From IMG/VR virus record IMGVR_UViG_3300020414_000984: a stretch of 36,187 nucleotides of DNA; one strand, written 5' to 3'. Made by a program: the position numbers and the translations under genes. Shown one piece after another: positions 3,091 to 24,400 of the stretch. Position 1 is the first letter of the stretch. Each line of letters starts with the position of its first letter. The DNA comes from an uncultured virus (IMG/VR IMGVR_UViG_3300020414_000984) (taxonomy: Duplodnaviria; Heunggongvirae; Uroviricota; Caudoviricetes; Crassvirales). The notes below the pieces were generated by a model. That model did no database searches. It saw only the letters and a list, made by a program, of their open reading frames with translations, and was not told the DNA's origin.

Positions 3091-3319
3091 AGCAGTTGAA
3101 GAATTAATTAAAGTTGCTAAAGAAAGAATTGTTGATTCAGATGATGATGTTTCAGCAGATAGATTAAAAAACGCGGCTGCTACAAAAAAGCTAGCTATAT
3201 TTGATGCTTTTGAAATACTTAATCGTATTGAAGAAGAAAAAAATATGTTAGAAGATAAACCTAAAGAAGTTAAAAAAGAAAAAACTTTTAGAGGGTTTGC
3301 AGAAGGGAGATCCAAATAA
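3044..3319 (+). CDS. Helical protein upstream of terL, candidate small terminase subunit
   Basis: Likely start is the ATG at 3044 (MNVKETKKNIIQAG); stop overlaps the terL ATG; assignment is positional only. Confidence 0.5.
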   Translation: MNVKETKKNIIQAGHKAVEELIKVAKERIVDSDDDVSADRLKNAAATKKLAIFDAFEILNRIEEEKNMLEDKPKEVKKEKTFRGFAEGRSK

Positions 3320-5535
3320 TGTATAAGCAATCATTATATAGCGTTATAGAGCCTATAAAAATTAATACAATTAAAAGGCTTAATAAAGCAAAAAAGTGGA
3401 AATACGGCTATAATAAAGAGCACGACGTAGTTGTTATAAGCAAGTCCGGTCAGATCGGGGAGGTGTATAGCATACAAAACTTAAAAATAGCTTTACCTAA
3501 ACAAAAAAATATACATAAGTTTGAAGATAACAAATGGAATAGATTTGAATATCCAAAAGCTTTAGAAAAAATAAAAACTGTTTTTGATTTTAAACAGTAC
3601 CCTCAAGATTTTAAAGAAAAATGGTATGATTACATCGATAATGAATTCACTCGTAGAGAAGAAGGTTTTTGGTTTTATAACAAAGGCATTCCTACTTACA
3701 TTAGTGGTACTCATTACATGTACTTGCAGTGGTCTAAAATTGACGTCGGGAATCCCGAATTCAGAGAGTCAAATAGATTATTCTTTATTTTCTGGGAAGC
3801 TTGTAAGGCAGATTCACGATCCTATGGGATGTGTTACCTTAAGAACAGGCGTTCCGGGTTTTCTTTCATGGCCTCAGGAGAGGTGGTTAACTTGGCAACC
3901 ATATCAAGTGACAGTAGGTATGGTATATTATCCAAGTCCGGTCCTGATGCAAAGAAGATGTTCACAGATAAGGTGGTACCCATATCAGTTAATTATCCCT
4001 TCTTTTTCAAGCCGACCCAGGACGGAATGGACCGTCCAAAGACCGAACTTGCCTACCGTGTCCCCGCAACCAAGTACACCCGTCGTAAGCTCACCGCCTC
4101 CGCCGATGAAACCTTACAGGACGAATTACAGGGACTTGATACCACCATCGATTGGAAGAACACCGGTGATAACTCCTACGACGGTGAGAAACTCAAACTC
4201 CTCGTACATGACGAGTCCGGTAAATGGGAGAAGCCGAACAACATCCTCAACAACTGGCGGGTCACCAAGACCACGTTACGATTAGGTAGTAGAATTATTG
4301 GTAAATGTATGATGGGTTCAACTAGTAACTCATTAGATAAAGGTGGTAGAAACTTTAAAAAACTATACGATGACTCAGATGTTACCAAGAGAAACAGCAA
4401 CGGACAGACTCGTTCAGGATTATATAGTTTGTTCATACCTATGGAATGGAACTACGAAGGATACATTGATTCTTATGGATTACCTGTATTCGATACACCG
4501 AAAAAATCGATTAAAGGACCTCAAAATGAGAAAATAAATTTAGGGGTTATTGAATATTGGGAAAATGAAGTTGAAGGATTAAAAGATGATCAAGACGCTT
4601 TAAATGAATTTTACAGACAATTTCCAAGAACAACAAAACATGCTTTTAGAGATGAATCAAAACAATCTTTATTTAATCTAACTAAAATTTATGAACAAAT
4701 AGATTTTAATGAAGATTTAAAAAATTCTATAGAAGTAACAAAAGGTAATTTTCAATGGGAAAATAGTGAAAAAGATACTAAAGTAATATTTGTACCTAAC
4801 AATAATGGTAGGTTTCTTGTTACTTGGGTTCCTCCTGTTTCACTACAAAATAAAAGATTTATTAAAAACGGAGTTAATTATCCTGGTAATGAACATATGG
4901 GAGCTTTTGGATGCGATCCTTATGATATATCAGGAACTGTAGATAAAAGAGGTTCTAATGGATCTTTGCATGGATTAACAAAGTTTAGCATGGAAAATGC
5001 ACCGCCAAATCATTTTTTCTTAGAATATATAGCTAGACCACAAACAGCTGAAATATTTTTTGAAGATGTTTTAATGGCTTGTGTTTTTTACGGTATGCCT
5101 ATATTAGCAGAAAACAATAAACCAAGATTACTATATTATTTTAAACGTAGAGGTTATAGAGGTTTTGCTATGAATAGACCTGATAAACTAAGAAATAAAT
5201 TATCAGTTACTGAAAGAGAAATAGGTGGTATACCAAATTCAAGCGAAGATATAAAACAAGCTCATGCTTCTGCCATAGAAACTTACATAGAACATTTTGT
5301 AGGTTTAAAAGAAACTGGATACGGTGACATGTATTTTCAGAGAACACTAGAAGACTGGGCAAAATTTAACATAAACAATAGAACAACACATGATGCTTCT
5401 ATTAGCTCTGGTCTAGCTTTAATGGCTTGCAATAAACATAGATATAAACCTAATGTTAAAAGAATATTAAAACCAGTAGATTTAGGTATAAAAAAATATA
5501 ATAATAAAGGATCAATGTCAAAAATAATTGAATAG
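3319..5535 (+). CDS. terL: Terminase large subunit
   Basis: 738 aa; Walker A-like YLKNRRSGFS, Walker B LLVHDESGKW, MMGST coupling motif, nuclease acidic motifs FGCDPYD and HDASISSGLA; lies directly before the portal gene. Confidence 0.93.
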   Translation: MYKQSLYSVIEPIKINTIKRLNKAKKWKYGYNKEHDVVVISKSGQIGEVYSIQNLKIALPKQKNIHKFEDNKWNRFEYPKALEKIKTVFDFKQYPQDFKEKWYDYIDNEFTRREEGFWFYNKGIPTYISGTHYMYLQWSKIDVGNPEFRESNRLFFIFWEACKADSRSYGMCYLKNRRSGFSFMASGEVVNLATISSDSRYGILSKSGPDAKKMFTDKVVPISVNYPFFFKPTQDGMDRPKTELAYRVPATKYTRRKLTASADETLQDELQGLDTTIDWKNTGDNSYDGEKLKLLVHDESGKWEKPNNILNNWRVTKTTLRLGSRIIGKCMMGSTSNSLDKGGRNFKKLYDDSDVTKRNSNGQTRSGLYSLFIPMEWNYEGYIDSYGLPVFDTPKKSIKGPQNEKINLGVIEYWENEVEGLKDDQDALNEFYRQFPRTTKHAFRDESKQSLFNLTKIYEQIDFNEDLKNSIEVTKGNFQWENSEKDTKVIFVPNNNGRFLVTWVPPVSLQNKRFIKNGVNYPGNEHMGAFGCDPYDISGTVDKRGSNGSLHGLTKFSMENAPPNHFFLEYIARPQTAEIFFEDVLMACVFYGMPILAENNKPRLLYYFKRRGYRGFAMNRPDKLRNKLSVTEREIGGIPNSSEDIKQAHASAIETYIEHFVGLKETGYGDMYFQRTLEDWAKFNINNRTTHDASISSGLALMACNKHRYKPNVKRILKPVDLGIKKYNNKGSMSKIIE
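3641..4285 (+). CDS. Candidate overprinted ORF in the +1 frame of terL (Pro/Ser/Thr-rich)
   Basis: Stop-free from 3584 to 4285 with ATGs at 3626 and 3641; coincides with a GC-rich island that ends at its TAG. Confidence 0.4.
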   Translation: MNSLVEKKVFGFITKAFLLTLVVLITCTCSGLKLTSGIPNSESQIDYSLFSGKLVRQIHDPMGCVTLRTGVPGFLSWPQERWLTWQPYQVTVGMVYYPSPVLMQRRCSQIRWYPYQLIIPSFSSRPRTEWTVQRPNLPTVSPQPSTPVVSSPPPPMKPYRTNYRDLIPPSIGRTPVITPTTVRNSNSSYMTSPVNGRSRTTSSTTGGSPRPRYD

Positions 5536-7926
5536 ATGAATATATATAGTGACACTAATAGTCCTTTTCCAAGTCAAGTTGTAAGTGATGCGGAAAAAGC
5601 TAGTCTTGAATATGGCAAGCAAGTTGCACAAGCTATAGAGCAAGAGTGGTTTAATCAAGGAAGAACTAGTGGTAATAGATACTTAACTAACTGGAATAAT
5701 TTTCATCAGTTAAGAACATATGCTAGAGGAGAGCAATCAATACAAAAATATAAAGATGAATTAGCGATTAACGGTGATTTGTCTTATCTTAATTTAGACT
5801 GGAAACCAGTTCCTATATTATCTAAGTTTGTAGATATAGTAGTAAATGGTATATCTTCAAAAACATATGATATAAAAGCTTATGCACAAGATCCTGAGTC
5901 TATAAAGAAAAGAACTAACTATGCTTCTAAAATATATGAAGACATGGTTGCTAGTGAGTATTTAGATAAATTAAGTCAAACATTAGGATTAGATTTATAT
6001 CAGTCTCCATTAAAAGATATAATTCCAGAAACATCAGATGAATTAGAGCTTCACATGCAGCTTTCATACAAACAAAGTGTAGAAATAGCAGAAGAAGAAG
6101 CAATATCTACTGTATTAGCTCAAAACAAATATGACCTAATAAGACGTAGATTGAATATGGATTTAGTTACTTGTGGTATAGCAGCTGCAAAAACTAGTTT
6201 TAACACAGCTAATGGCGTTACTGTAGATTATGTTGATCCTGCTTATATGGTTTATTCTTACACAGAAGATCCAAACTTTGAAGATATATACTATGTAGGT
6301 GAATTAAAATCTATTTCATTATCAGAATTAAAAAAAGAATTTCCACATATAACAGATAAAGAACTAGAAAGAATACAAGCAATGCCAGGTAATAGATCTT
6401 ATATTACAGGGTGGGGTGATTATGATGTTAATACTGTTCAGGTTTTGTATTTTGATTATAAAACTTATCACAATCAAGTTTTTAAAATAAAACAAACAGA
6501 TCAAGGTTTAATGAAAGCTATTGAAAAACCTGACACATTTAATCCACCTGAAAATGAAATGTTTGAAAGAGTTTCAAGATCTATTGAAGTTTTATATAGT
6601 GGCGCGAAAGTATTAGGTACAGATACCATGTTAAAATGGGAGTTAGCAGAAAACATGTCAAGACCTTATGCTGACACTACTAAAGTTAAAATGAATTATG
6701 CTATTTGTGCACCACGTATGTATAAAGGTAGAATAGAATCTATAGTTAGTAAATGTACTGGTTTTGCAGATATGATTCAACTAACTCATCTAAAACTACA
6801 GCAAGTTATATCTCGTATGGTACCAGATGGTGTTTATTTAGATATGGACGGTCTTGCTGAAGTTGATTTAGGTAATGGTACTAATTATAATCCAGCTGAA
6901 GCATTGAATATGTATTTCCAAACTGGTAGTATTGTAGGTAGATCACTAACTCAAGAAGGTGATATGAACGCGGGTAAAGTGCCTATACAAGAATTACAGT
7001 CTGGAAGTGGTAATGCTAAAATATCTAGTCTTATACAGACTTATCAATACTATTTACAAATGATAAGAGACGTGACCGGACTAAACGAAGCTAGAGATGG
7101 TAGTTTACCAGACCGTAACACACTTGTAGGATTACAGAAACTAGCCGCTAATGCATCAAATGTAGCAACTAGACATATTGTACAGTCTAGTTTGTTTTTG
7201 ACTCTTAAATTAGCAGAAAATATTAGCTTAAAAATAGCTGATGCTTTAGAGTTTCCTTTAACAAAATCATCGTTACAAAACTCTATTTCTACCTACAATG
7301 TTAAAACTTTGAAAGAAGTTGTTAATCTTAATTTACATGACTTTGGTATTTTCTTAGAATTAGAACCAGATGAGGAAGAAAAACAACAATTAGAAGCAAA
7401 TATACAAATAGCTTTGCAAGCTAAAAATATTGATGTTGAAGATGCTATAGATTTAAGACAAATTAAAAATCTTAAACTAGCAAATCAAATGCTTAAAGTT
7501 AAACGTAAACAAAAAGCAAAACAAGATCAAGCTAATCAACAAGCGAATATACAAGCACAAGCTCAAGCTCAAGCACAGACAGCAGAAAAAACAGCTATGG
7601 CTGAAGTACAAAAACAACAAGCTATATCTGGTGCTAATGTAGAGTATGAAAAAGCTAAAAGTGAGTTTGAAAAAGATCGTATGCAGTTACAAGCTCAGTT
7701 AGATCAGCAAAAAATGATGCAACAACATAAAAATGATATGGAACTTGCTAAATTACAAGAGCAAGGAACAACATCAAGAGAACAACAAAGAGAAAAAGCC
7801 AAGGATAAAAGAATAAAAATGGAGGGTACTCAACAAAGTAAAATGATTTCTCAAAGAAAAAACGATAGTAATCCAATAAACTTTGAATTAGAAGGTAAAC
7901 AAACCATGGGTGTTCCTAATCCTTAA
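5536..7926 (+). CDS. Portal protein
   Basis: 796 aa between terL and scaffold; motifs LDWKPVPILSKFVDIVVNG and RDVTGLNEARDG; long Q/K/E coiled-coil C-terminus. Confidence 0.88.
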   Translation: MNIYSDTNSPFPSQVVSDAEKASLEYGKQVAQAIEQEWFNQGRTSGNRYLTNWNNFHQLRTYARGEQSIQKYKDELAINGDLSYLNLDWKPVPILSKFVDIVVNGISSKTYDIKAYAQDPESIKKRTNYASKIYEDMVASEYLDKLSQTLGLDLYQSPLKDIIPETSDELELHMQLSYKQSVEIAEEEAISTVLAQNKYDLIRRRLNMDLVTCGIAAAKTSFNTANGVTVDYVDPAYMVYSYTEDPNFEDIYYVGELKSISLSELKKEFPHITDKELERIQAMPGNRSYITGWGDYDVNTVQVLYFDYKTYHNQVFKIKQTDQGLMKAIEKPDTFNPPENEMFERVSRSIEVLYSGAKVLGTDTMLKWELAENMSRPYADTTKVKMNYAICAPRMYKGRIESIVSKCTGFADMIQLTHLKLQQVISRMVPDGVYLDMDGLAEVDLGNGTNYNPAEALNMYFQTGSIVGRSLTQEGDMNAGKVPIQELQSGSGNAKISSLIQTYQYYLQMIRDVTGLNEARDGSLPDRNTLVGLQKLAANASNVATRHIVQSSLFLTLKLAENISLKIADALEFPLTKSSLQNSISTYNVKTLKEVVNLNLHDFGIFLELEPDEEEKQQLEANIQIALQAKNIDVEDAIDLRQIKNLKLANQMLKVKRKQKAKQDQANQQANIQAQAQAQAQTAEKTAMAEVQKQQAISGANVEYEKAKSEFEKDRMQLQAQLDQQKMMQQHKNDMELAKLQEQGTTSREQQREKAKDKRIKMEGTQQSKMISQRKNDSNPINFELEGKQTMGVPNP

Positions 7927-7953: not shown

Positions 7954-9159
7954 ATGTCAGAAGAAGTAAAAACAAATGAACCTGTTAAACAGGAAGGTGA
8001 CTTTAAAATAAAAAGTAAACCTAAAAAACCAAAACAATTAGGTAATAAAGAACAAGAAATACCAAAGGTTAATATTAAAGAACCTTTAGTAGAAGTTGAA
8101 CCTGCTGTTAAAAAGGTTGAAATTAAAAAAGAAGACGATGCCATTCAAATCGGAGAAACAAAGGAGATACCTGTGGGCGAACCATCCGGAGATAGCGCAA
8201 AGGTGGGAGAACCTGTACAAAAGTCCGACGAGACTACTGAAGGGTTTTCTCCGATCCAAGAAGTAACTGAAGAAGAAGTTAAAAAAGTTGAAGCTGAAGT
8301 TAAAGAAGCTGTAAGAGACGAACAAGTATTAGGTAAACAATTACCTGAAAATGTAGAAAAACTTGTTAACTTCATGGAAGAAACCGGTGGAACTGTAGAA
8401 GATTACGTTAGATTAAATGCTGACTACAGTAATGTTGATGAAACAGCATTGTTAAAAGAATATTACAAAAAAAATAAACCTCATTTAGATTCAGACGATA
8501 TTAATCTTATATTAGAAGATTATACATGGGACGAAGATATACATGAAGAAAAAGAAATACGCAGGAAAAAACTTGCGTTTAAAGAAGAAGTTGCAAAAGC
8601 CAAAAACTATTTGGAAGACTTGAAACAAAAATATTACGACGAGATCAAGTTGAGACCGGGTGTTACTCAAGAACAACAAAAAGCAATGGACTTTTTCAAC
8701 CGATACAATAAGGAGCAAGCAAAAGCTGAGCAATTACACGAAGAGTTTAAACGTAAAACTAACAACCTTTTCAATGAAGATTTCAAAGGTTTTGATATTA
8801 AAGTTGGAGATAAAAGATATAAGTATAACGTTCAGAATCGTGAAAAAATTGCAGAAAACCAGTCAAACATTAATAATCTCATAGGGAAGTTCCTAGATGG
8901 AGATGGTAATGTGGTAGACCCAGCTGGTTATCATAAAGCAATGTATGCTGCTGAAAACGTAGATAAAATCGCTGCTCATTTTTACGAACAAGGTAAAGCC
9001 GACGCTGTAAAAGACGTCGTAAATAAATCTAAAAATCTTTCTGATGTAAAAGCAAGAGAAGGTAATAAAGGTGATATTTACATAGGTGGCTTGAAAGTAA
9101 AAGCGATTAGTGGTGCTGATTCTACAAAATTGAAAATTAAAACAAGAAAATTTAACTAA
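7954..9159 (+). CDS. Capsid scaffolding protein
   Basis: Acidic, low-complexity N-terminus and helical C-terminus; lies between portal and major capsid genes. Confidence 0.7.
   Translation: MSEEVKTNEPVKQEGDFKIKSKPKKPKQLGNKEQEIPKVNIKEPLVEVEPAVKKVEIKKEDDAIQIGETKEIPVGEPSGDSAKVGEPVQKSDETTEGFSPIQEVTEEEVKKVEAEVKEAVRDEQVLGKQLPENVEKLVNFMEETGGTVEDYVRLNADYSNVDETALLKEYYKKNKPHLDSDDINLILEDYTWDEDIHEEKEIRRKKLAFKEEVAKAKNYLEDLKQKYYDEIKLRPGVTQEQQKAMDFFNRYNKEQAKAEQLHEEFKRKTNNLFNEDFKGFDIKVGDKRYKYNVQNREKIAENQSNINNLIGKFLDGDGNVVDPAGYHKAMYAAENVDKIAAHFYEQGKADAVKDVVNKSKNLSDVKAREGNKGDIYIGGLKVKAISGADSTKLKIKTRKFN
8138..8266 (+). CDS. Overprinted 42-aa basic protein MPFKSEKQRRYLWANHPEIAQRWENLYKSPTRLLKGFLRSKK
   Basis: ATG-to-TAA ORF in the +1 frame of the scaffold gene that spans a GC-richer patch; resembles small phage proteins starting MPFKS.KQRR..WA..PEIA..W (from recollection). 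Confidence 0.7.
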   Translation: MPFKSEKQRRYLWANHPEIAQRWENLYKSPTRLLKGFLRSKK

Positions 9160-9175
9160 TTAAAAATTACAAATT

Positions 9176-10621
9176 ATGAGTTTATCTCCACAATTTGGGT
9201 CAATCATACCTTCATCAAAACAAGAGTTGTTGAATGAAAACTACTTGAAGTTTAACGATGGAACTAGTGATTTTGCCCAGCAATATTTACCAGAGGTCTA
9301 CGAACAAGAAGTAGAGCGTTATGGAAACAGAACGTTATCTGGATTTTTAAGAATGGTCGGTGCAGAAATGCCTATGACCTCTGATCAAGTAATCTGGTCT
9401 GAACAAAATAGATTACACATTGCTTATGACAAATGTACTTATGCAGGTGGTGCTCCAACAATATTGGTTATTCCAGTTGGTGGTACTGAACCAGCAGGTA
9501 CTTTAGTAGAAAATGTAATCTCTATTAACGACACTGTTGTTATTATGGATACAGTTACTGGTGTTGAAGGAAAAGCTATTGTAACTGCAAGAGCTGCTAA
9601 CAGTATTACTGTTCAGTTCTTTGACAATGCTGCTGCAACGCTTACGTCTAAAGGCTTTGTTTCTGGACAAATCAAAGTATTTGTTTATGGTTCTGCTTAT
9701 AGTAAAGGAAGAAATACAGATGGTACTGGAGCTGATGCTGAAAGAATATCTGTTGAGCCTTCTTTCAGACAATTTTCTAACTCACCAATCATTATTAGAA
9801 GCCAATACGTAGTTAATGGTTCTGATATGGCGCAAATCGGTTGGGTTGAAGTTGCTACTGAAGATGGTGCTTCTGGATACTTATGGTATTTAAAAGCTGA
9901 GTCTGAAACAAGATTAAGATTTGAAGACTACTTAGAAATGGCTATGGTAGAAGGTGAATTAAATGCTGCTGCAGGTAATGCTGATTACCAAGCAGGTAAA
10001 TTACCTGGAACACAAGGTTTATTTGCTGCTATCGAAGATAGAGGTAATGTACAAGTAGGATTCACTGCTGCTGCAGGTCTTGATGATTTTGATGCTATTC
10101 TTAAAAACTTAGATACTCAAGGTGCTATTGAAGAAAACATGCTTTTCTTACAAAGACAAACTGCTTTAGATTTTGATGATATGTTAGCTAATATTTCTGG
10201 CGGATTTGCTGGTGGTGTTGCTTTCGGTTTATTTGAAAACTCTGAAGAAATGGCACTTAACTTAGGTTTTTCTGGATTTAGAAGAGGTTCTTATGACTTT
10301 TACAAAACTGATTGGAAATACTTAAATGACGCTTCTACAAGAGGTGCTATTTCTGGTATCAATTCAATCGAAGGTGTATTAGTACCTGCTGGAACTTCTA
10401 CAGTTTATGATCAAATCTTAGGTACTAACATTAGAAGACCTTTCTTACACGTAAGATATAGAGCTTCTCAAGCTGACGATAGAAGAATGAAGTCTTGGAT
10501 TACTGGTTCTGCTGGTGGTGCGTTTACTTCAACTCTTGATGCAATGCAAGTAAACTTCTTATCTGAAAGATGTTTAGTTACTCAAGCTGCTAACAACTTT
10601 GTATTATTCAAAGGAGTATAG
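9176..10621 (+). CDS. Major capsid protein
   Basis: 481 aa after the scaffold; strongly biased codons (GCT/GGT/TCT); followed by a stable hairpin; motifs QQYLPEVYEQEVERYG and GFRRGSYDFYKTDWKYLND. Confidence 0.88.
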   Translation: MSLSPQFGSIIPSSKQELLNENYLKFNDGTSDFAQQYLPEVYEQEVERYGNRTLSGFLRMVGAEMPMTSDQVIWSEQNRLHIAYDKCTYAGGAPTILVIPVGGTEPAGTLVENVISINDTVVIMDTVTGVEGKAIVTARAANSITVQFFDNAAATLTSKGFVSGQIKVFVYGSAYSKGRNTDGTGADAERISVEPSFRQFSNSPIIIRSQYVVNGSDMAQIGWVEVATEDGASGYLWYLKAESETRLRFEDYLEMAMVEGELNAAAGNADYQAGKLPGTQGLFAAIEDRGNVQVGFTAAAGLDDFDAILKNLDTQGAIEENMLFLQRQTALDFDDMLANISGGFAGGVAFGLFENSEEMALNLGFSGFRRGSYDFYKTDWKYLNDASTRGAISGINSIEGVLVPAGTSTVYDQILGTNIRRPFLHVRYRASQADDRRMKSWITGSAGGAFTSTLDAMQVNFLSERCLVTQAANNFVLFKGV

Positions 10622-13511: not shown

Positions 13512-16500
13512 ATGGCACAAAGTATTAATACTTTTTTAAAAGGTAAACTTAATAAAGACCTAGATGCTCGTTTGTTACCAAACGGAGAGTATAGAGATGC
13601 TAAAAATATACAAGTAAGTAAATCTGAAGGTCCAAATGTTGGATCGTTAGAAAACGTGCTGGGTAATGAACTTGCGTTAAATTTTAAAACACTTACAGGT
13701 GTTAGCAATTTAAGATGTATTGGTTACTTAACAAGTGAAGTAGACGAGTGCATATTTTTATTTTTAACAGATTATGATGATCCTAAACCTCAGTTTTTAA
13801 CATATTATAATCAAGCAAACAACTTTATAATAAAATATAAAGTAGGAACTAGCGTTAGCACTTCAAGTTCTACAATTTTAGTACAAGGTGCTTTTTTAAA
13901 TTTTTCACAATCACACCCTATTTACGGTGTTAATTTACTAGAGACTTTACTATTTTTTACAGATAATAGAAATCAACCTAGAGTTATAAATGTACAAAAA
14001 GCTGAAGAAATAGGTGTTAATCATTATACTACTGAAGATCAAATAAGTGTAGCTAAATATAATCCTTATAATCCTATATATTTATGGGATAAAAACGCAG
14101 GTTCAAGTGCGTCTGTTCCTTTTGAAACAACTATGAAAGATGTTACTTCAAAGTTTATGCCAAATGGTGGATCTGCTTTTTGTAGAGGAGCTCATAGTGG
14201 AGGGACTAGTATAGATATTGATAATATAAAAGGTGATATTTTACAAGCTGGTCTAGGTGTAACAAACCCTTATCAAGCTTTAGGCGCTACAGTATCTTAT
14301 ATTAATAATAACGGTGAAATAGTTAGCACAGGAACTACGGTAAACACTTATAATTCAGCAACAGGTGTGTTAACAACGGTTGCAAGTGTAGCTGCATTAG
14401 GCGATAACACAGAGTTAGTATTTAATGCTAATCCTTTTTATGATAAAAATTTTGCTGGTGATGAGGATTATTTAGAAGATAAATTTGTTAGATTTAGTTA
14501 TAGATTTAAATTTGAAGATGGTGAATATTCTTTAATGGCTCCGTTTACTCAAGCTGCTTTTATACCTAAACAAGACGGGTATTTCATGTATGTTAAGCAT
14601 GATAACACAGGTACATATCCTATTCCTACAAAAGATGATCAAACAGATTCATTTAGAAGTACTGTTGTTTCTTTTATGGAAAACAAAACAGATGAAATAA
14701 CTTTAAAAGTTCCATTACCTTTTGCAGCAAATACTTTAGAGTCTAGTTTAAAAGTTACAGAATTAGAATTACTTTATAAAGAGTCTGATGGATTGGCAGT
14801 TAAAGTTATAGATACAGTTACTATAAGTGAAATAGCAACCGCTAGTGTAGGTAAAGATTATTATGATTACAAATATTTATCTAAAAAACCTTTTAAAACT
14901 TTACCAGATGATGAAATAATAAGAGTTTTTGATCAAACTCCTGTTAGAGCATTGTCACAAGAAATATCAGGTAACAGAGTTATTTATGGTAATTTCCAAA
15001 ACAAGCACACTCCTTTAGAATCAATTGATTACAATGTAGCTGCTAGTCCTAAAGATGATTTTGATTTAAAAACTGGAACAGCAACTGGAGCAGCAGGTAA
15101 TTACAATGCTAATGCCACTGTTAATATTTCAAGTGTTACAGGTACTATACAAATAGGTAGTATTGTAACTGGTCCTTCTGGATCAACTATACCTGCTAAT
15201 ACTCAAGTTACAGGAGGTAATTTTTCAAGTACAGTTACTTTTAATAAAGCTATTGTTTTAACTGCTTTAGGTGGTTCTGCTTTAGTTTTTAATCCAATTG
15301 GACCAGACACTCAAAATGTTACTAAAGTAGAATATCCTAATTCTTCTTTAAAACAAAATAGAAATTATCAAGTAGGTGTTGTGCTATCAGATAGATATGG
15401 TAGACAATCTAGTGTTATATTATCAAACAATGATACGATAAGCGCTGTTGGTGGTTCTTCTTTTGTTGGAGATACAATATATTCTGCTTATAACACTGAA
15501 GGAGTTCAACAGGAAAATTGGCCTGGTGATAGTTTAAAGGTTTTATTTAATCAACCTTTAGCACCTAGCTCTAAAAACATGGTTACAAAATGGCCTGGAC
15601 TTTACAATGGAGATACTACAGATAAAAATTATAATCCATTAGGTTGGTATTCATATAAAATAGTAGTTAAACAAACAGAACAAGAATATTACAATGTTTA
15701 TTTACCAGGTATTATGGCTTCATATCCTGAAGATCAAACACTAGAACTTGGTGGAACTTCTTTTGTTAGTTTAATAAATGATAATATTAATAAAGTTCCA
15801 AGAGATTTAACCGAGCTTGGTCCTGAACAAAGACAATTTAGAAGTTCTGTTCAATTATTTGGTAGAGTTGAAAACACGTCTACAGCTGTAACATATAGCG
15901 GTGTAGATATACAAAATATAGGACTAACCAACACACCTTATTATCCAGGTAAATCAAGTGATACTGTTTCTACAGTTTCTACTATAGATGACTTATTTGC
16001 TTATAATGCTAGTAATCCACCTAGACCTAACTATTTTCCACAGTTTTATGCTTTAGATTCAAATCCTTTAATAGCTAAGATAAGTACAGAAGCTCAAATA
16101 GGTCAAATAGCTACAACTAATTTTGATACAGCTAGCGCGCTTACAAATGCAGCGGTTAATGACGCTAGTTCTTTTGTTTTAAAAAATGTAATAGGAAATA
16201 TAACTCCAGGTGATTTTGTTAGCGGTATAGGTGTTCCTGAAGGTGTTTTTGTAACAGCTTTTAATTCAGGTACTAGCACGGTTCAAATAGTAGATTCTTC
16301 TAATAATCCGTATAATATTACGCTTCCGGTAGATGCGGTTTTATTTTTTAGTCCAGGATTTGCGAATCCTAACTTAGGTAATTTAAAAAGACCAGGTGTG
16401 CAGTATTTAGCGGTTTATGAAACAGAAGCTGTAGATTCATTGTTAGATATATTCTGGGAAACAACTAGTGCTGGTTTAATTAGTGATTTAAATAATTTAA

Positions 16501-17768
16501 TTATTAATTCAGCAGAAGGTGCTGCTGGTTTAAGCAGCTTTAACACATCACCATGGGACGAATTTACTGGTGGTATGAATTTTGCAGCTGAAGATATACT
16601 ACAGTCTGACTTTACTTTAGTTGATAGCTTTGGCGTTGATATACCTAATTCAGATATTGATAGTGTTACTCTTGAATCAGCTGTAGATGCAAATGGTGTG
16701 GATAGACAATTAGCTTCAAATGGTGGACCTTATTTTACACTTACAAATCCAAATCCAGGTGATTTTAATATACAAATAACACAAAATTACTGGAACAATG
16801 TATTTTTTGGTGATAATGCTAATGTTAGGCTTTTTACTTTTAAAATAAACACTACAACAAGTGTTAATGGTAATATATCTAGTAACAGCTTTTTTGAAAG
16901 CGCTGGTCCAGATAACATGCCTCCTCAAAGAGGTACTCAAATAAGTCCAGGTACTGCTGGAACAGAATCACCCACATCTGGTTCTACAGTATACACTAAT
17001 AGAACTATAACTACTACTCAAGCCACTTGTGATTTTGTTAATGGAGCTGCTAATGTAAATTTAAGAACAAATGACTTAGATATAAGTCTAGCTGCTGTAG
17101 ATAGTGATGGAACAGATGTAACAAGCAATAATTATTTTAGTCTAAATACAGCTATAGTAACTGGAACTTTAGTTAAAAATATTCAAGCAACAGTAGCTAT
17201 ACAAAACAGCTCTATGCCTATTGATATTTATACCTTAACAGTAACAGGTACTGATTCTGGTATATCTCCAGTAGCTAACTATGTTGTTAATATTGATGTA
17301 AGAGAAAATGTTTCTTACGCTGAGCAAGTGTTTAGATGTGTTACCGGCGAATATGATTGTGGTGGTTATAGTGTACTTGTAATGGCTGTAAGTACTAGTG
17401 GTATTAGTAACAATAGAGGTTGGTATGCTTATGTAGGTGCTATAAATTCTTTAGCAGACGGAACAAATGTTACTCTTGATAAAACAAATGCTTACACGTC
17501 AGCTCAATCAGCTTATGGTAGTTATGCTGGAAACTTTTTCTTTTTCCAACAAAATACGCCAGATCAAACAGGTTTAAATACTTTACTAGGTTATGTTAGT
17601 GGTAGTTTAGATGATTATTGGCTTGGTAATATTGATGGAGCTGGAACTCCAGGTTGGTGTTACAATTATGGAACAGGATCTAATCCTTCGCCTTGTGGTT
17701 GTGATGGTCTTGGTTGTAATGATCCTTTTTTAGTTAGTGTAAGTAATTACAATTTTGAAATAGTGTAA
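13512..17768 (+). CDS. Large tail stabilisation / nozzle-type protein with inserted domains and a Cys-rich C-terminus
   Basis: Starts FLKGKLNKDLDARLLPNGEYRDAKNI; contains LLFFTDNRNQPRVIN, KFVRFSYRFKFEDGEYS and YQVGVVLSDRYGR, which resemble tail stabilisation proteins of Bacteroidota podoviruses. Confidence 0.7.
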   Translation: MAQSINTFLKGKLNKDLDARLLPNGEYRDAKNIQVSKSEGPNVGSLENVLGNELALNFKTLTGVSNLRCIGYLTSEVDECIFLFLTDYDDPKPQFLTYYNQANNFIIKYKVGTSVSTSSSTILVQGAFLNFSQSHPIYGVNLLETLLFFTDNRNQPRVINVQKAEEIGVNHYTTEDQISVAKYNPYNPIYLWDKNAGSSASVPFETTMKDVTSKFMPNGGSAFCRGAHSGGTSIDIDNIKGDILQAGLGVTNPYQALGATVSYINNNGEIVSTGTTVNTYNSATGVLTTVASVAALGDNTELVFNANPFYDKNFAGDEDYLEDKFVRFSYRFKFEDGEYSLMAPFTQAAFIPKQDGYFMYVKHDNTGTYPIPTKDDQTDSFRSTVVSFMENKTDEITLKVPLPFAANTLESSLKVTELELLYKESDGLAVKVIDTVTISEIATASVGKDYYDYKYLSKKPFKTLPDDEIIRVFDQTPVRALSQEISGNRVIYGNFQNKHTPLESIDYNVAASPKDDFDLKTGTATGAAGNYNANATVNISSVTGTIQIGSIVTGPSGSTIPANTQVTGGNFSSTVTFNKAIVLTALGGSALVFNPIGPDTQNVTKVEYPNSSLKQNRNYQVGVVLSDRYGRQSSVILSNNDTISAVGGSSFVGDTIYSAYNTEGVQQENWPGDSLKVLFNQPLAPSSKNMVTKWPGLYNGDTTDKNYNPLGWYSYKIVVKQTEQEYYNVYLPGIMASYPEDQTLELGGTSFVSLINDNINKVPRDLTELGPEQRQFRSSVQLFGRVENTSTAVTYSGVDIQNIGLTNTPYYPGKSSDTVSTVSTIDDLFAYNASNPPRPNYFPQFYALDSNPLIAKISTEAQIGQIATTNFDTASALTNAAVNDASSFVLKNVIGNITPGDFVSGIGVPEGVFVTAFNSGTSTVQIVDSSNNPYNITLPVDAVLFFSPGFANPNLGNLKRPGVQYLAVYETEAVDSLLDIFWETTSAGLISDLNNLIINSAEGAAGLSSFNTSPWDEFTGGMNFAAEDILQSDFTLVDSFGVDIPNSDIDSVTLESAVDANGVDRQLASNGGPYFTLTNPNPGDFNIQITQNYWNNVFFGDNANVRLFTFKINTTTSVNGNISSNSFFESAGPDNMPPQRGTQISPGTAGTESPTSGSTVYTNRTITTTQATCDFVNGAANVNLRTNDLDISLAAVDSDGTDVTSNNYFSLNTAIVTGTLVKNIQATVAIQNSSMPIDIYTLTVTGTDSGISPVANYVVNIDVRENVSYAEQVFRCVTGEYDCGGYSVLVMAVSTSGISNNRGWYAYVGAINSLADGTNVTLDKTNAYTSAQSAYGSYAGNFFFFQQNTPDQTGLNTLLGYVSGSLDDYWLGNIDGAGTPGWCYNYGTGSNPSPCGCDGLGCNDPFLVSVSNYNFEIV

Positions 17769-21487: not shown

Positions 21488-24400
21488 ATGACAGAAGAAG
21501 AATTTTTAATGTCTCTACCACAAAGTCTTGATCCAGATGAAAAATTAAAAAGACTTGAGCAATGGAGACAAGAAAATCCTCAACCTGAAGTTGAAGAAGA
21601 AGTAGTTGAAGAAGAAGTATCTGAGCAACAACCTAAAGAAGAAATAATATCTTCTGAAAATGTTAATTTTAGTTTTCCTAGTTCATTTAACAATCAACAA
21701 AAACCAAGTTTATTTTCTTTAGGTTCTGATGGACAGATTGATATAAACTCTTCTATTTTTAACACATCTAATACAGATACTTTAAATTATCAGTTTCAAG
21801 GAACGTCTTTGCCTACTACTAACTTAAATTTAAGTTTAGGTGGTTTGCAAAACAATGTTGAAGCAATGGAGGCTCAACAAAGACTTACTGCTGTAAGTAA
21901 ACCTAATGAAATCATGAATACTTTTGATAAGTCATATGAATATAAATATGATCTTGTTGATGGTAAAATGATTTATTATACTAGAAAAAATGGCACTGAA
22001 GACGAGTGGGATGTAATAGATAATCCAGAAGATAATAGATATTTTGATATTGGAGCTAAAGTTTTTAAACATTTTGATTATGACGAAGAAGCTTATGACC
22101 AAGGACAAAGTATAATAAGACAAGGTAAGAAAGTAGGTAAAAAATACAGTTCTTTTATGGAAGAATCAGAAACTATATTGTTAGATGAAACTTCCACAGA
22201 AGAATTTGTAGATATAGAAAAAATATTTACAGAGCGCGTGCAAATGACTGATGAACAAGAGGAAAATAATGAAGATGCAGCCACTTCATTTGTTGAAAAT
22301 AAACAAAGAGAAAGAGTAGAGGTTAAAGAAGTAACAACTAAAATTGGAAGTGAAGGTGGAAAACCTATATATTCTACACAAAAAGTAAAAGTAAAAACTG
22401 GTGAGATGGAGGATAATCCAGATTACATAGCTGCAAGAGATGAGGCTATAAAACAGTTAAAAAATGAAAAAGGTATACTTGATAAAGATTTTGATTTAAA
22501 CGATCCAGAAATCATGAAAATGGTAGATGCTCGTATTTATCAAAATAAATTACGTGAATTAAACTCTGCAACTACTATTAATAATTTAGAAAATTATATT
22601 GAAGGTTTAGGTACAGATTTTGATCTTGCTGATTATTATGAAGTAGGTGTTGACTTTTTAACTGACGCAAGTCCTATTTTTAATACTTTAAAAGATAAAC
22701 TTTTACCAAAAATAAACGAAGAATTAGGTACTAATCTTGGTGAAAAAACAATACTAGATGTTTTTGATAGAACTGAACTTCAACAACGAATGGAGAAGTT
22801 TATTGATATTAAACAAAGTAATTTAGATAATAAATCAAAAAAGCTAGAAACTTTCATGGCTAGTGGTGAGGATTTATTAAAACAACTTAATCGAGTTGCT
22901 CTTAATATATCAAAAGGTAATTATCAAACACCTAGTCAAGTAGACGAAGCGAATAAAGCTTTAACTAATATTAATAAACAGATAGACGAAACATTAAACC
23001 TTATAAATAAAAAATATGATGAGTTTAGTGATGAGTTAGAAAAAAACCCTGATCTTGCTGGTTTTGCTGATAAGCTAAAAAGAAACTATGGTGCTTTTCC
23101 TTTAATGGTTAATAATTTTAAAGCAGCTGGTACTGAAATGTTTTTAGGTGTAGAAGAAATGGCTTACCAAGTGTACAATTTATATGACGCAGGTGTAGAC
23201 TGGGTAGATGATAATGTGTTTGGTGGTTATAATTTATTTTCATCAACTTTAAATCCAGCAGGAGAATTAGTTTCATTATTTGGTATGGAGAGTGATTTAG
23301 AAGAATGGAGAACAAACAACATAGAGCTTACTGAAAAATGGATACAAGATTCGTTAAGAGGTACTATTGCTGAAGCGAAAAGCGTTAGTGATATAACAGA
23401 TTTTGGTGATTTTGTTACATGGGGTTTTACTAATGTAGGAACTTTAACACCTCAAGTCATGGCTATGACAGTATCTCCTCATACTGGGTTGCTTATTGTA
23501 GGTTCTAGTGCTGGTGGTAATAAATTTAAAGAGCTTACAAAAATAGAAGAACAAAGTGTAGAAGATTATAGAAAATGGAATGATTTAAAACCTACACAAA
23601 GAGATGGTGAAAGCGATGAGTTATTTAAAGAGAGAACACAGAGATGGCAAGATGAAAAACCTGAAATAGTAAACTATACCGCTCTTCAAAAATATGGTGG
23701 TGCTATGATGACCATGGGATTAGAACTAGGTTTAGGTAGAGTTGTTAGTTTACCTTTTGCTAAAGGTAATTCACTAGTGTCTCCTATTTTAAATAGAATA
23801 AAAGTATTACCAGGTGCTCAAAATAAATGGTCTAGGATGTTTGCTAATGGAGTAAGAAAATCAGCAGTAGGTTTTGGAGATGCTCAATTAGAAGGATTTG
23901 AAGAAGGTTTAATAGGTGTAGGAGATAATTGGTATAGAAGATACGTATTAGGTGATACTAGTGTTAATTTATTTGATGGTTTTTGGGATCAATACTCAGC
24001 TGGAGTTATGGGTGGTTATTATTTCAAAGCACCGCATCTTATGACTAGTGTTTTAAATACAGTTCAAACACCAAAAGATGTATCTAATATTACAGGATTA
24101 CAAAATGAAATTAAAAGTATTAATAATACAATACTCAATAATCCTAAAATGTCTGCTAATACTAAAGATATATTAAACGACAATGTTGCAACAAAAATTA
24201 ATCAGATAACAAACAGTATAAATACTTCTTTAAATACATTTACTCAAATGTCTGAAACAGATTTTAATTTGTTAGGAACTATAGATCAACAACTTTTTGA
24301 AATTAATAGTCAAATTGAGCAAATACAAAATGACGATGGCATCGTTGAAGGAAAAGAACAATTAATAGAAGATCTTCAAAACGAAAGAAACAATTTAACA

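What the first reader, a model, noticed from the sequence alone, without database searches (positions are those of the whole stretch)
8138..8266. Hidden 42-aa gene overprinted inside the scaffold gene
The +1 frame reads MPFKSEKQRRYLWANHPEIAQRWENLYKSPTRLLKGFLRSKK*, which is absent from the ORF track. It spans a GC-richer patch with atypical codons in the low-complexity part of the scaffold and has an A-rich leader. The sequence is protein-like and resembles small stand-alone phage proteins beginning MPFKS.KQRR..WA..P (from recollection). This suggests an existing gene was engulfed by the disordered scaffold region, coupling a basic, possibly DNA-binding peptide to head assembly. With the terL case, nested genes may be a recurrent feature of this head module.
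Basis: partly seen in the sequence, partly recalled or inferred. Interest (0 to 1): 0.8.

Follow-up and report, generated by a model that had tools for sequence, protein, structure and literature searches.

The report
Conserved hidden gene inside phage scaffold gene
A 42-codon gene for a small basic protein lies one base out of step inside the head-assembly gene of an abundant group of marine phages; evolution protects it more strongly than the gene around it, yet gene finders never report it.

Summary
ATG 8138 to TAA 8266 is a 42-codon ORF in the +1 frame of the 401-codon gene 7954..9159, which lies between the portal and major capsid genes. It sits in a 48-51% GC patch in a 25-35% GC region.

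It is a real gene. Every relative fetched through the host gene keeps an intact ORF at this site and in this frame (80 of 80, then 80 of 80). There are two very different alleles. Variation falls on the nested third codon positions, with pN/pS of 0.18 and 0.10. The host frame scores 1.3-1.7, the same as the unused frame.

The peptide matches the consensus of a large, unnamed family of phage proteins (1253 clusters). These proteins normally stand alone or head longer virion-module proteins, often just after the portal gene. None of 53 complete homologous ORFs elsewhere is nested.

The host frame reads the stretch as the end of a predicted disordered acidic arm. It stays open through rare non-T codon endings (chance 0.0003), which largely explains the GC patch. 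The small gene is therefore the older reading, and the scaffold-position gene threads through it.

Function is inferred only: a low-copy basic head-assembly factor.

The parts
8138..8266 (+). Nested gene: 42 codons plus TAA, frame +1 of the host gene. It encodes a 5.2-kDa basic helical protein of the MPFKSEKQRRYLWA... family.
   Evidence: ORF and translation. Intact in 80 of 80 and 80 of 80 relatives. pN/pS 0.18 (allele A) and 0.10 (allele B). Family. Model with helices 6-15, 17-28 and 32-41, pLDDT 76.6.
8118..8137 (+). A-rich, unstructured leader of the nested start, with A at -3, -6, -12 and -13. No Shine-Dalgarno sequence is expected in a Bacteroidia host.
   Evidence: A at these four positions in 97, 98, 88 and 86% of 145 distinct relatives. 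All four are present in 71%, against 8% of 25 gene starts and 1% of 509 internal out-of-frame ATGs of the window. The role of these adenines in Flavobacterium johnsoniae: PMC6847099, section read. The leader is unpaired in the centroid fold.
8137..8268 (+). Dual-coding stretch: host codons 62-105, an acidic linker (pI 4.05) at the end of the predicted disordered N-terminal arm. It is kept free of stops but is not detectably constrained in residue identity.
   Evidence: Host frame open in 112 of 113 distinct sequences, while the third frame has at least 2 stops in every one. Probability of staying open under synonymous recoding with genome codon use is 0.00029. pN/pS 1.27-1.69, equal to the unused frame. 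pLDDT below 50 for residues 1-105 and first helix at 106.
7954..9159 (+). Host gene, 401 aa, in the scaffold position between portal and major capsid protein. It has a disordered N-terminal arm and a mostly helical body.
   Evidence: Relatives in phages of Flavobacterium, Cellulophaga, Tenacibaculum and Maribacter match only residues about 127-397. At least 8000 clusters of homologues in metagenomes. Model. No Pfam, PHROG or PDB match.
5536..7926 (+). Portal gene directly upstream (context).
   Evidence: phrog_6547 portal protein, E 1.5e-142.
9176..10621 (+). Major capsid-position gene directly downstream (context).
   Evidence: phrog_13704, head and packaging, virion structural protein, E 6e-92.

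Best explanation
Bases 8138-8266 are a separate protein-coding gene embedded in the +1 frame of the gene between portal and capsid. SHOWN: the ORF, its ATG and its approximate length are kept in every relative examined. It is under strong purifying selection in its own frame. It belongs to a large family of phage proteins that are otherwise never nested. The host frame is held open across it by codon choice. INFERRED, step 1 (origin): the small gene is the older reading. The host gene came to read through it, turning it into part of a tolerant, disordered acidic linker. To avoid stops in the host frame, nested codons that precede AA-, AG- or GA-starting codons must not end in T. G-ending nested codons also give host codons that start with G (Glu, Asp, Gly, Ala, Val). 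Together these constraints produce the GC-rich patch and the rare codons. INFERRED, step 2 (expression): ribosomes start independently at ATG 8138 on the same mRNA, using an A-rich leader of the Bacteroidia type. Ribosomes translating the host frame run over this start site, so output should be low relative to the host protein. INFERRED, step 3 (function, about 40% likely): the 42-aa basic helical protein acts in head assembly or inside the virion. The reason is that relatives of its family are encoded right after portal genes, between portal and capsid genes, or as the N-terminal module of long virion-module proteins.
For: Presence: among loci fetched through the host protein, 75 of 80 carry allele A and 5 of 80 carry allele B at the same site and in the same frame. 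A second set fetched with an allele-B host protein gives 80 of 80. Together with the window these are 161 sequences and 113 distinct 350-nt contexts. Adding 80 loci found with the peptide itself gives 237 sequences and 145 distinct contexts, all with intact ORFs of 37-47 codons. Selection: variable sites at nested codon positions 1/2/3 are 19/17/35 of 42 in allele A and 6/5/22 of 37 in allele B. pN/pS for nested/host/unused frame is 0.176/1.27/1.51 (A, n=86) and 0.099/1.69/1.62 (B, n=16). Along the whole host gene, diversity peaks at host codon position 3, except in 8134-8268, where it peaks at host position 1, which is nested position 3. Family: 1253 clusters at E <= 0.001, with the motif at the N-terminus. 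In an alignment with 55 small members, M1, F3, S5, Q8, P17 and W23 are invariant, and the window peptide equals the consensus over its first 20 residues. phrog_1375 matches at E 1.4e-3. Dual coding: only 29 of 100,000 synonymous recodings leave the host frame open, and at all 9 codons where a T-ending synonym would make a host-frame stop a non-T codon is used. Start site. Context of relatives. Absence from the sister clade: 0 of 80 loci, best E 0.52.
Against: There is no direct evidence of translation: no Ribo-seq or peptide data. The RNA-library material consists of assembled contigs, which cannot show starts or levels and may contain DNA. pN/pS values in overlapping frames depend on each other, so the host-frame value near 1.3 does not prove neutrality. 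The host is inferred only from cultured relatives' hosts, so the rules used for the leader may not apply. The A-richness of the leader also follows from the Lys/Glu codons of the host frame. The function is guilt by association. Family contexts are mixed: beside a holin in FlowerPower, in an early region in P-RSP2, and after phrog_3287 rather than a recognised portal in many long forms. The codon-usage criterion on its own would mark the nested frame as the foreign or younger one.
Confidence: 0.85

Rival explanations
1. Frameshift product. Ribosomes that start at ATG 8138 slip back one base near the end of the nested ORF and continue in the host frame. This would give an MPFKS-headed scaffold body of about 335 aa, the long-form architecture seen in other phages. 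The 42-aa protein would be the non-shifted by-product or a second product.
For: An in-phase X_XXY_YYZ heptamer (G_GGT_TTT or G_GGT_TTC, nested codons 35-37) is present in 114 of 145 distinct sequences. In unrelated viral contigs the same N-terminal module heads proteins of 186-798 aa (26 of 53 complete ORFs). Four predicted proteins from public assemblies (P0003, P0004, P0005, P0009) start with the motif and continue in the host frame.
Against: 21 of 145 sequences have no in-phase heptamer at all; only 10 in-phase heptamers were counted at allele-B-compatible positions, so at least 8 of the 18 allele-B sequences lack one. The heptamer is also explained by conserved Gly-Phe in both frames, since host Phe98 is 94% conserved. 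The nested stop position and the C-terminal tail are conserved. No unusual RNA structure is present (z 0.23). The four chimeric proteins switch frame at different points and are single-contig predictions. At least P0003 shows a second shift, as sequencing errors would give.
Confidence: 0.08
2. Silent relic. A foreign small gene was inserted recently into the tolerant linker and is not expressed. The open frame survives only because the insertion is young or GC-rich.
For: The patch is GC-rich and its codons are foreign-looking. GC-rich sequence carries few stops: four of six frames are open across it.
Against: The ORF is intact in every one of 113 distinct contexts from loci chosen by the host gene, although the C-terminal part of the host protein diverges to 68% identity. 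Nested-frame pN/pS is 0.10-0.18, and changes are concentrated at nested third positions. Two alleles sharing only about 20% identity (global-alignment measure) both keep the family's invariant residues and a stop after 37-47 codons.
Confidence: 0.03
3. The conservation belongs to a nucleic-acid element rather than to a second protein. Candidates are an RNA structure, a promoter, or a packaging or recombination site.
For: The stretch is the least variable part of the 5' half of the host gene at host codon position 3.
Against: The variation has a three-base period in the nested frame. Replacements are conservative (R/K, L/M, Y/F). The translation matches a protein family found in unrelated phages. 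The fold energy is not unusual (z 0.23). The only Rfam match is at chance level (16.5 bits against a threshold of 81).
Confidence: 0.02
4. The 401-codon ORF is not one protein. The true scaffold-position protein starts downstream of 8266, and the upstream 61 codons plus the read-through are untranslated. In that case nothing overlaps.
For: Cultured relatives' homologues are 339-357 aa and align only from about residue 127. In one relative (L049) the host frame is broken upstream of the nested ORF while the nested ORF is intact.
Against: The host frame is open across the nested ORF and 20 codons either side in 112 of 113 distinct sequences. The chance expectation is 0.0003, and the third frame has 2 or more stops in every sequence. 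The 5' part 7954-8133 has its highest diversity at host codon position 3, as coding sequence does. The window has no in-frame ATG, GTG or TTG between 8266 and codon 141, which lies inside the conserved body.
Confidence: 0.04

Closest known systems
Lambda Rz/Rz1 spanin genes (embedded architecture)
   Same: A small gene lies wholly inside a larger one in the +1 frame in a tailed phage. The embedded gene sits in a flexible linker region of the host protein. Gene callers routinely miss it. An origin from a formerly separate gene has been discussed (PMC6139136, passages read).
   Different: Rz1 is an outer-membrane lipoprotein of the lysis cassette and is known to bind Rz. The gene here is a basic soluble helical peptide in the head module, belongs to a different family, and no interaction with its host protein is shown. 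Here the same family is seen both nested and free-standing. The spanin survey reports no family that mixes the embedded architecture with the overlapped or separated ones.
phiX174 lysis gene E inside external scaffolding gene D
   Same: A small out-of-frame gene overlaps a scaffolding gene (PMC3324380, passages read). Low output from inside a heavily translated gene is a plausible shared logic; this last point is my inference.
   Different: This is a Microviridae ssDNA phage, not a tailed phage. E is, from my recollection, a membrane protein generally regarded as a de novo overprint. The peptide here has no hydrophobic segment (sequence) and belongs to a widespread older family.
phrog_1375 and the unnamed MPFKSEKQRRYLWA... 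family of small phage proteins
   Same: The N-terminal motif is shared, with M1, F3, S5, Q8, P17 and W23 invariant. Members are small and have a basic tail. The same helical hairpin is predicted, and the best matches among predicted viral structures are family members.
   Different: All 53 complete homologous ORFs examined in other viral contigs are free-standing or long forms, and none is nested. The window's C-terminal tail departs from the common W...YGS...K-rich tail, which allele B keeps. The family has no known function, no Pfam model and no solved structure.
Pfam DUF3008 (PF11450)
   Same: A language-model search names a cluster with DUF3008 on 15% of its members as the nearest family-bearing cluster (score 0.83). 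I also recalled a similar K-S-x-x-Q-x-R start; that recollection was not tested.
   Different: hmmscan at E <= 1 finds no Pfam family in the peptide. None of the 13 weak Pfam families listed for the 56 aligned members is DUF3008.

Membership tests
MPFKSEKQRRYLWA... small phage protein family (phrog_1375-like) | N-terminal motif with M1, F3, S5, Q8, P17 and W23 at the very start of the protein | tested here: met
   These six columns are invariant in the alignment of the window peptide with 55 small members, and the peptide equals the consensus over residues 1-20. phmmer gives E 4.8e-9 to a 47-aa stand-alone member.
MPFKSEKQRRYLWA... small phage protein family (phrog_1375-like) | Significant match to the PHROG profile | tested here: inconclusive
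   phrog_1375 at E 1.4e-3, 20 bits, residues 3-23 on profile positions 17-37 of 70. The match is weak because it is short. Only 5 of 36 family members scanned reach it at E <= 0.001.
MPFKSEKQRRYLWA... small phage protein family (phrog_1375-like) | Free-standing gene, or N-terminal module of a longer protein | tested here: not met
   Here the gene is nested out of frame. 0 of 53 complete homologous ORFs in other contigs are nested.
Embedded out-of-frame gene pairs of tailed phages (Rz/Rz1 type) | Small ORF wholly inside a larger ORF, same strand, other frame, with both frames kept | tested here: met
   8138-8266 lies inside 7954-9159 in frame +1. The nested ORF is intact in all sequences, and the host frame is open in 112 of 113.
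Embedded out-of-frame gene pairs of tailed phages (Rz/Rz1 type) | The two products act together | not testable with these tools
   No interaction between the peptide and its host protein was tested.
Programmed -1 ribosomal frameshift sites | In-phase slippery heptamer conserved across relatives, with a downstream stimulatory structure | tested here: not met
   21 of 145 distinct sequences have no in-phase heptamer. The fold z-score is 0.23.
Phage scaffolding proteins (for the host gene) | Gene between portal and major capsid genes; acidic, largely helical protein | tested here: met
   Gene order. pI 5.43. Long helices at 199-233, 239-272 and 336-370.
Phage scaffolding proteins (for the host gene) | Sequence or fold relationship to a characterised scaffolding protein | tested here: inconclusive
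   No Pfam or PHROG family. No PDB sequence match. Foldseek best E is 0.79, and the best Z is 5.3 on generic helical hairpins. The Elemovirus homologue is labelled 'structural protein' by its depositors.
Single-gene lysis proteins of the phiX174 E type | N-terminal transmembrane helix | tested here: not met
   The 42-aa sequence has no hydrophobic stretch. It has 11 K+R and pI 10.7.
Pfam DUF3008 (PF11450) | Match to the Pfam model | tested here: not met
   No Pfam hit at E <= 1 for the peptide. DUF3008 is not among the 13 weak families listed for the 56 aligned members.

The most novel reading that the evidence does not exclude
The MPFKSEKQRRYLWA module may be a general docking tag that brings proteins to the portal or procapsid in many tailed phages. 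It heads more than a thousand protein clusters of all lengths, often encoded just after the portal gene. In this clade the tag has been detached and is made from inside the scaffold-position gene. Ribosome traffic on the host frame would then throttle its start, fixing a low tag-to-scaffold ratio. The nesting itself would have arisen by a structural gene threading its frame through a neighbouring small gene, the reverse of classical overprinting.
Probability: 0.15. Interest if true: 0.8.

Novelty: new variant of a known kind. Interest (0 to 1): 0.62.

Why it matters
Out-of-frame embedded genes are well documented in tailed phages mainly for spanins. This one is a clean, strongly conserved case in the head module of a phage lineage that is very abundant in marine metagenomes: the host protein has at least 8000 clusters of homologues. 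The exact 42-aa protein was not among the hits of a search of 5.8 billion predicted proteins, so annotation pipelines miss it systematically.

It is also a clear example in which the nested gene is the older partner and the surrounding gene supplies the new, disordered reading. The compositional footprint is readable: rare non-T-ending codons and a GC spike. That footprint could be used to search for further cases.

It also attaches a testable role in head assembly to a large family of tiny phage proteins with no known function.

Tried and rejected
1. Complex prediction of the peptide with the portal monomer gave no verdict (score 0.00 in both runs, controls not folded). This says nothing for or against binding.

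2. Fold searches with the 42-aa model found no solved structure at E <= 0.001. The viral library returned only members of the same uncharacterised family.

3. A profile search of PDB sequences gave a best E of 1.4.

4. Pfam on 30 long-form relatives gave only DUF6321, in 2 of them. Pfam on 17 neighbouring proteins gave nothing. I therefore could not confirm that phrog_3287 proteins are portals.

5. The host protein has no PDB sequence match and no convincing fold match.

6. The window's own assembly is not held. The nearest record is a 6-kb fragment that is one of the loci already in hand.

7. All sequencing runs are kept as contigs. Contigs from four metatranscriptome libraries of three studies cover relatives of the region; one 1241-base contig spans 7934-8700. 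These can show neither transcription starts nor levels, and DNA carry-over is possible. Of the 40 differences listed there (92 more were not shown), three fall inside the nested ORF, at 8200, 8221 and 8227, and all three are nested third positions.

8. Literature: no paper in the library holds 'DUF3008'. No Elemovirus paper was found that explains the 'structural protein' label. Searches on overlapping genes, scaffolding proteins and tailed phages listed no description of this gene pair. These were keyword searches of an open-access library only.

9. Earlier notes of this scan hold nothing for this genome or this peptide.

10. An apparent likeness between the host-frame linker and the N-terminal region of a distant relative was not pursued. 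It is short and low in complexity, and that relative has no nested ORF.
Full report
WHAT IS THERE

The window is the structural region of a low-GC tailed phage. Gene order is large terminase 3319..5535 (phrog_6681, E 8.7e-163), portal 5536..7926 (phrog_6547, E 1.5e-142), a 401-codon gene at 7954..9159 with no family match, and a capsid-position gene at 9176..10621 (phrog_13704, E 6e-92). Inside the 401-codon gene, ATG 8138 opens a 42-codon frame that ends at TAA 8264-8266. Base 8137 is the first base of host codon 62, so the small frame is +1 relative to the host.

GC content rises to 0.51 at 8150-8249, against 0.23-0.34 on either side. The product has 11 Lys+Arg and 3 Asp+Glu, pI 10.7 and a mass of 5.2 kDa.

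IS IT MORE THAN CHANCE?

1. The host protein was used to fetch relatives from IMG/VR: 568 of 601 candidate stretches were relatives, and the best 80 were kept, at 67-100% identity. tblastn of the peptide finds a full-length, gap-free 42-residue match in 75 of these 80.

2. The other five (L047, L075, L076, L080, L081) carry a different 37-codon ORF at the same site and in the same frame. It begins MPFKHKRQ, keeps the family's later Pro and Trp, and ends in a Lys-rich tail. I call these allele A and allele B.

3. A second fetch, using an allele-B host protein as query, gave 80 loci, all with an intact nested ORF. Some of these contigs repeat those of the first set.

4. The window plus both sets make 161 sequences and 113 distinct 350-nt contexts. 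Adding 80 loci found with the peptide alignment itself gives 237 sequences and 145 distinct contexts, all with ORFs of 37-47 codons. This last set contains the ORF by construction, so it is not an unbiased test of presence.

WHICH FRAME IS UNDER SELECTION?

In allele A (86 distinct sequences), variable sites at nested codon positions 1, 2 and 3 number 19, 17 and 35 of 42. In allele B (16 distinct sequences) they number 6, 5 and 22 of 37.

Pooled pairwise pN/pS:

| Frame | Allele A | Allele B |
|---|---|---|
| Nested | 0.176 | 0.099 |
| Host | 1.27 | 1.69 |
| Unused third frame | 1.51 | 1.62 |

Along a codon alignment of 77 complete host genes, diversity is highest at host position 3 in every 90-base window (0.24-0.43). 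The exceptions are 8134-8223 and 8179-8268, where position 3 drops to 0.14-0.15 and host position 1, which is nested position 3, is highest at 0.20-0.22.

A caveat applies: these measures are not independent in overlapping frames. Even so, the phase switch coincides with the nested ORF and is repeated in two alleles. An RNA element does not explain it. The fold energy is ordinary (z 0.23), and the only Rfam match is at chance level.

THE FAMILY

The peptide hits phrog_1375 (unknown function) at E 1.4e-3. It also matches stand-alone ORFs in unrelated phages: a 39-aa protein of marine phage 023Pt_psg01, a 72-aa protein of Streptomyces phage FlowerPower and its relatives, and ORFs of 34-40 codons (from the shared MPF start) in phages C75C1 and P-RSP2.

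A search of 1.84 billion cluster representatives gives 1253 clusters at E <= 0.001. The match is almost always at residue 1, in proteins of 40 to 869 aa. Aligned with 55 small members, M1, F3, S5, Q8, P17 and W23 are invariant, and the window's first 20 residues equal the consensus.

There is no Pfam model and no relative among solved structures. AlphaFold2 gives a confident helix-kink-helix for residues 6-28 (pLDDT 85-92 for the first 20 residues) and a less certain third helix. The nearest predicted viral structures are family members. A language-model search also returns only small hypothetical viral proteins, with DUF3008 as a weak lead.

WHERE RELATIVES ARE ENCODED

Eighty viral contigs were fetched with a stand-alone member. 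The motif was found in 75 of them, and 53 ORFs were complete: 27 short (43-83 aa) and 26 long (186-798 aa). None lies inside a larger ORF of another frame.

In 42 of the 75, the start lies within 300 bases downstream of the end of an ORF of 450 aa or more, often overlapping its stop. Of the 19 upstream ORFs scanned, 7 are phrog_1216 portal proteins and 8 are phrog_3287, a head-and-packaging 'virion structural protein' that I could not identify further.

In a third arrangement, shared with phage 023Pt_psg01, the small gene sits between the portal and the major head protein, next to a GroES-like gene. Some contexts do not fit a head role: the gene lies beside a holin in FlowerPower and in a region of unnamed genes in P-RSP2. 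The link to virion modules is therefore frequent but not universal.

THE HOST FRAME

The host ORF is open across the nested ORF and 20 codons on either side in 112 of 113 distinct sequences, while the third frame has at least two stops in every one. The exception, L049, is broken upstream of the nested ORF, which is itself intact.

I recoded the window's peptide 100,000 times with the codon use of 16 large genes of the window. The host frame stayed open in 29 recodings (0.00029). Recoded GC was 0.30 +/- 0.018 (maximum 0.395), against 0.481 observed.

A host-frame stop arises whenever a nested codon ending in T precedes a codon starting with AA, AG or GA. At all 9 such places where T-ending synonyms exist (13-90% of genome usage), the gene uses a non-T codon, usually a rare one such as TTC, TCG, GCG, CCG, TAC, ACG or TCC. 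Nested GC3 is 0.62-0.66 in both alleles, against 0.15 for the genome. My inference is that G-ending nested codons also give host codons that start with G (Glu, Asp, Gly, Ala, Val), which fits the acidic linker (pI 4.05).

The AlphaFold2 model of the host protein has pLDDT below 50 and no secondary structure for residues 1-105. Its first helix begins at residue 106, directly after the nested stop. The 5' part 7954-8133 shows host-frame periodicity. There is no in-frame start codon between 8266 and Met141. The 401-codon protein is therefore most likely real, and it reads the small gene as the end of a floppy arm.

WHICH READING IS OLDER?

The small family is spread over many unrelated phages. 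The host-frame version of this segment exists only in this clade. Cultured relatives' homologues (339 and 357 aa) align only from about residue 127, about 45 residues further from the N-terminus than in those homologues (about residue 83), and have no such ORF. Eighty contigs around that sister clade have no family member within 1.5 kb of the gene (best E 0.52). By the usual distribution criterion the nested frame is ancestral and the host reading is the new one.

The alleles behave as cassettes. On a tree of the host protein's C-terminal part, the 18 allele-B sequences are not one clade (their common ancestor spans 73 of 113 leaves). Allele B shares about 20% global identity with the window's peptide, while the neighbouring host part is 73% identical. 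A similarly distant allele-A variant keeps 68%.

EXPRESSION (INFERRED)

The only cultured relatives infect Flavobacterium, Cellulophaga, Tenacibaculum and Maribacter, so a Bacteroidia host is likely. In Flavobacterium johnsoniae, adenines at -3, -6, -12 and -13 raise initiation, and Shine-Dalgarno sequences are not used (PMC6847099, abstract and section 15 read).

The nested start has A at all four positions. Among 145 distinct relatives, A occurs there in 97, 98, 88 and 86%. All four are present in 71%, against 2 of 25 gene starts and 1% of 509 internal out-of-frame ATGs of the window. The leader is unpaired in the centroid fold.

Part of this A-richness follows from the host frame's Lys and Glu codons. 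No data here show translation.

RIVALS

- A -1 frameshift from the nested frame into the host frame would recreate the long-form architecture. An in-phase G_GGT_TTT/C is present in 114 of 145 sequences. However, 21 of 145 lack any heptamer, the stop and the tail are conserved, and Gly-Phe is encoded in both frames at that spot. I give it 8%, as an additional product.
- A silent relic, a nucleic-acid element, and a mis-called host gene are each contradicted by the data above.

COMPARISON WITH KNOWN CASES

The closest known cases are lambda Rz1 in the +1 frame of Rz, a gene that callers also miss (PMC6139136, passages), and phiX174 gene E inside the external scaffolding gene D (PMC3324380, passages). 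This case differs from both in several ways: it is in a tailed-phage head module, the embedded member belongs to a large older family, and the same family occurs both free-standing and nested. I file it as a new variant of a known kind.

THE terL CLAIM

The 233-codon alternative-frame ORF 3584..4285 has no family match. It is stop-free in 9 of 69 terL sequences (68 relatives plus the window), and terL's own third-position pattern runs through it unchanged. Nested genes are therefore not shown to recur in this module.

VERDICT

I put the chance that this is a real, separately encoded and selected nested gene at about 85%. The head-assembly role is about 40% likely and untested. Interest is 0.62.

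Noticed in passing
terL keeps its normal third-position diversity across it. It is not a conserved nested gene.
   Followed up: yes
L049:3001-3200 (IMG/VR relative): In one relative the host frame is broken by a frame-changing deletion upstream of the nested ORF, while the nested ORF is intact. This is either an assembly error or a natural variant that makes the small protein without the full host N-terminal arm.
   Followed up: partly
Nested site in loci L007-L167: The nested gene comes in at least four variants (A1, A2, A3, B) that do not follow the tree of the neighbouring host-gene body. The 18 allele-B sequences are spread over a clade of 73 of 113 leaves. This suggests cassette exchange by recombination.
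   Followed up: partly
Proteins P0003, P0004, P0005, P0009, P0006, P0153 (public assemblies): The closest predicted proteins in public collections that carry this peptide are chimeras that switch between the nested and host frames at different points, or run on past the usual stop. They are either sequencing errors or rare natural fusions.
   Followed up: no
L325-L367 and similar viral contigs: The same N-terminal module heads long, low-complexity proteins of 186-798 aa. These start exactly at the stop of a 650-735-aa phrog_3287 'virion structural protein', in contigs that also carry 2OG-Fe(II) oxygenase and carbamoyltransferase genes. Some have segments that match tape-measure profiles.
   Followed up: partly
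Portal 3' region of relatives, about 500 bases upstream of the nested ORF (e.g. L048:1310-1378): Weak tblastn matches of the peptide (E 0.68-9) to an alternative-frame stretch reading roughly xKFKSKKQ...KWK. This is probably low-complexity noise.
   Followed up: no
window 21488..30535 and 13512..17768 (+): Two very large ORFs of 3015 and 1418 codons lie downstream in the structural region. They were not examined.
   Followed up: no
L168-L238 (sister clade of the host gene): Sister-clade homologues share a conserved N-terminus (MEIKVR...ELL.KHE) that the window's clade lacks. It is followed by a variable acidic linker of similar character. The two clades therefore have different N-terminal arms on a shared body.
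   Followed up: no
window 7954..9159: The host protein has at least 8000 clusters (90% identity) of homologues at E <= 1e-10 in public metagenomes, including Tara records, all labelled hypothetical. The phage lineage is very abundant in the sea.
   Followed up: no
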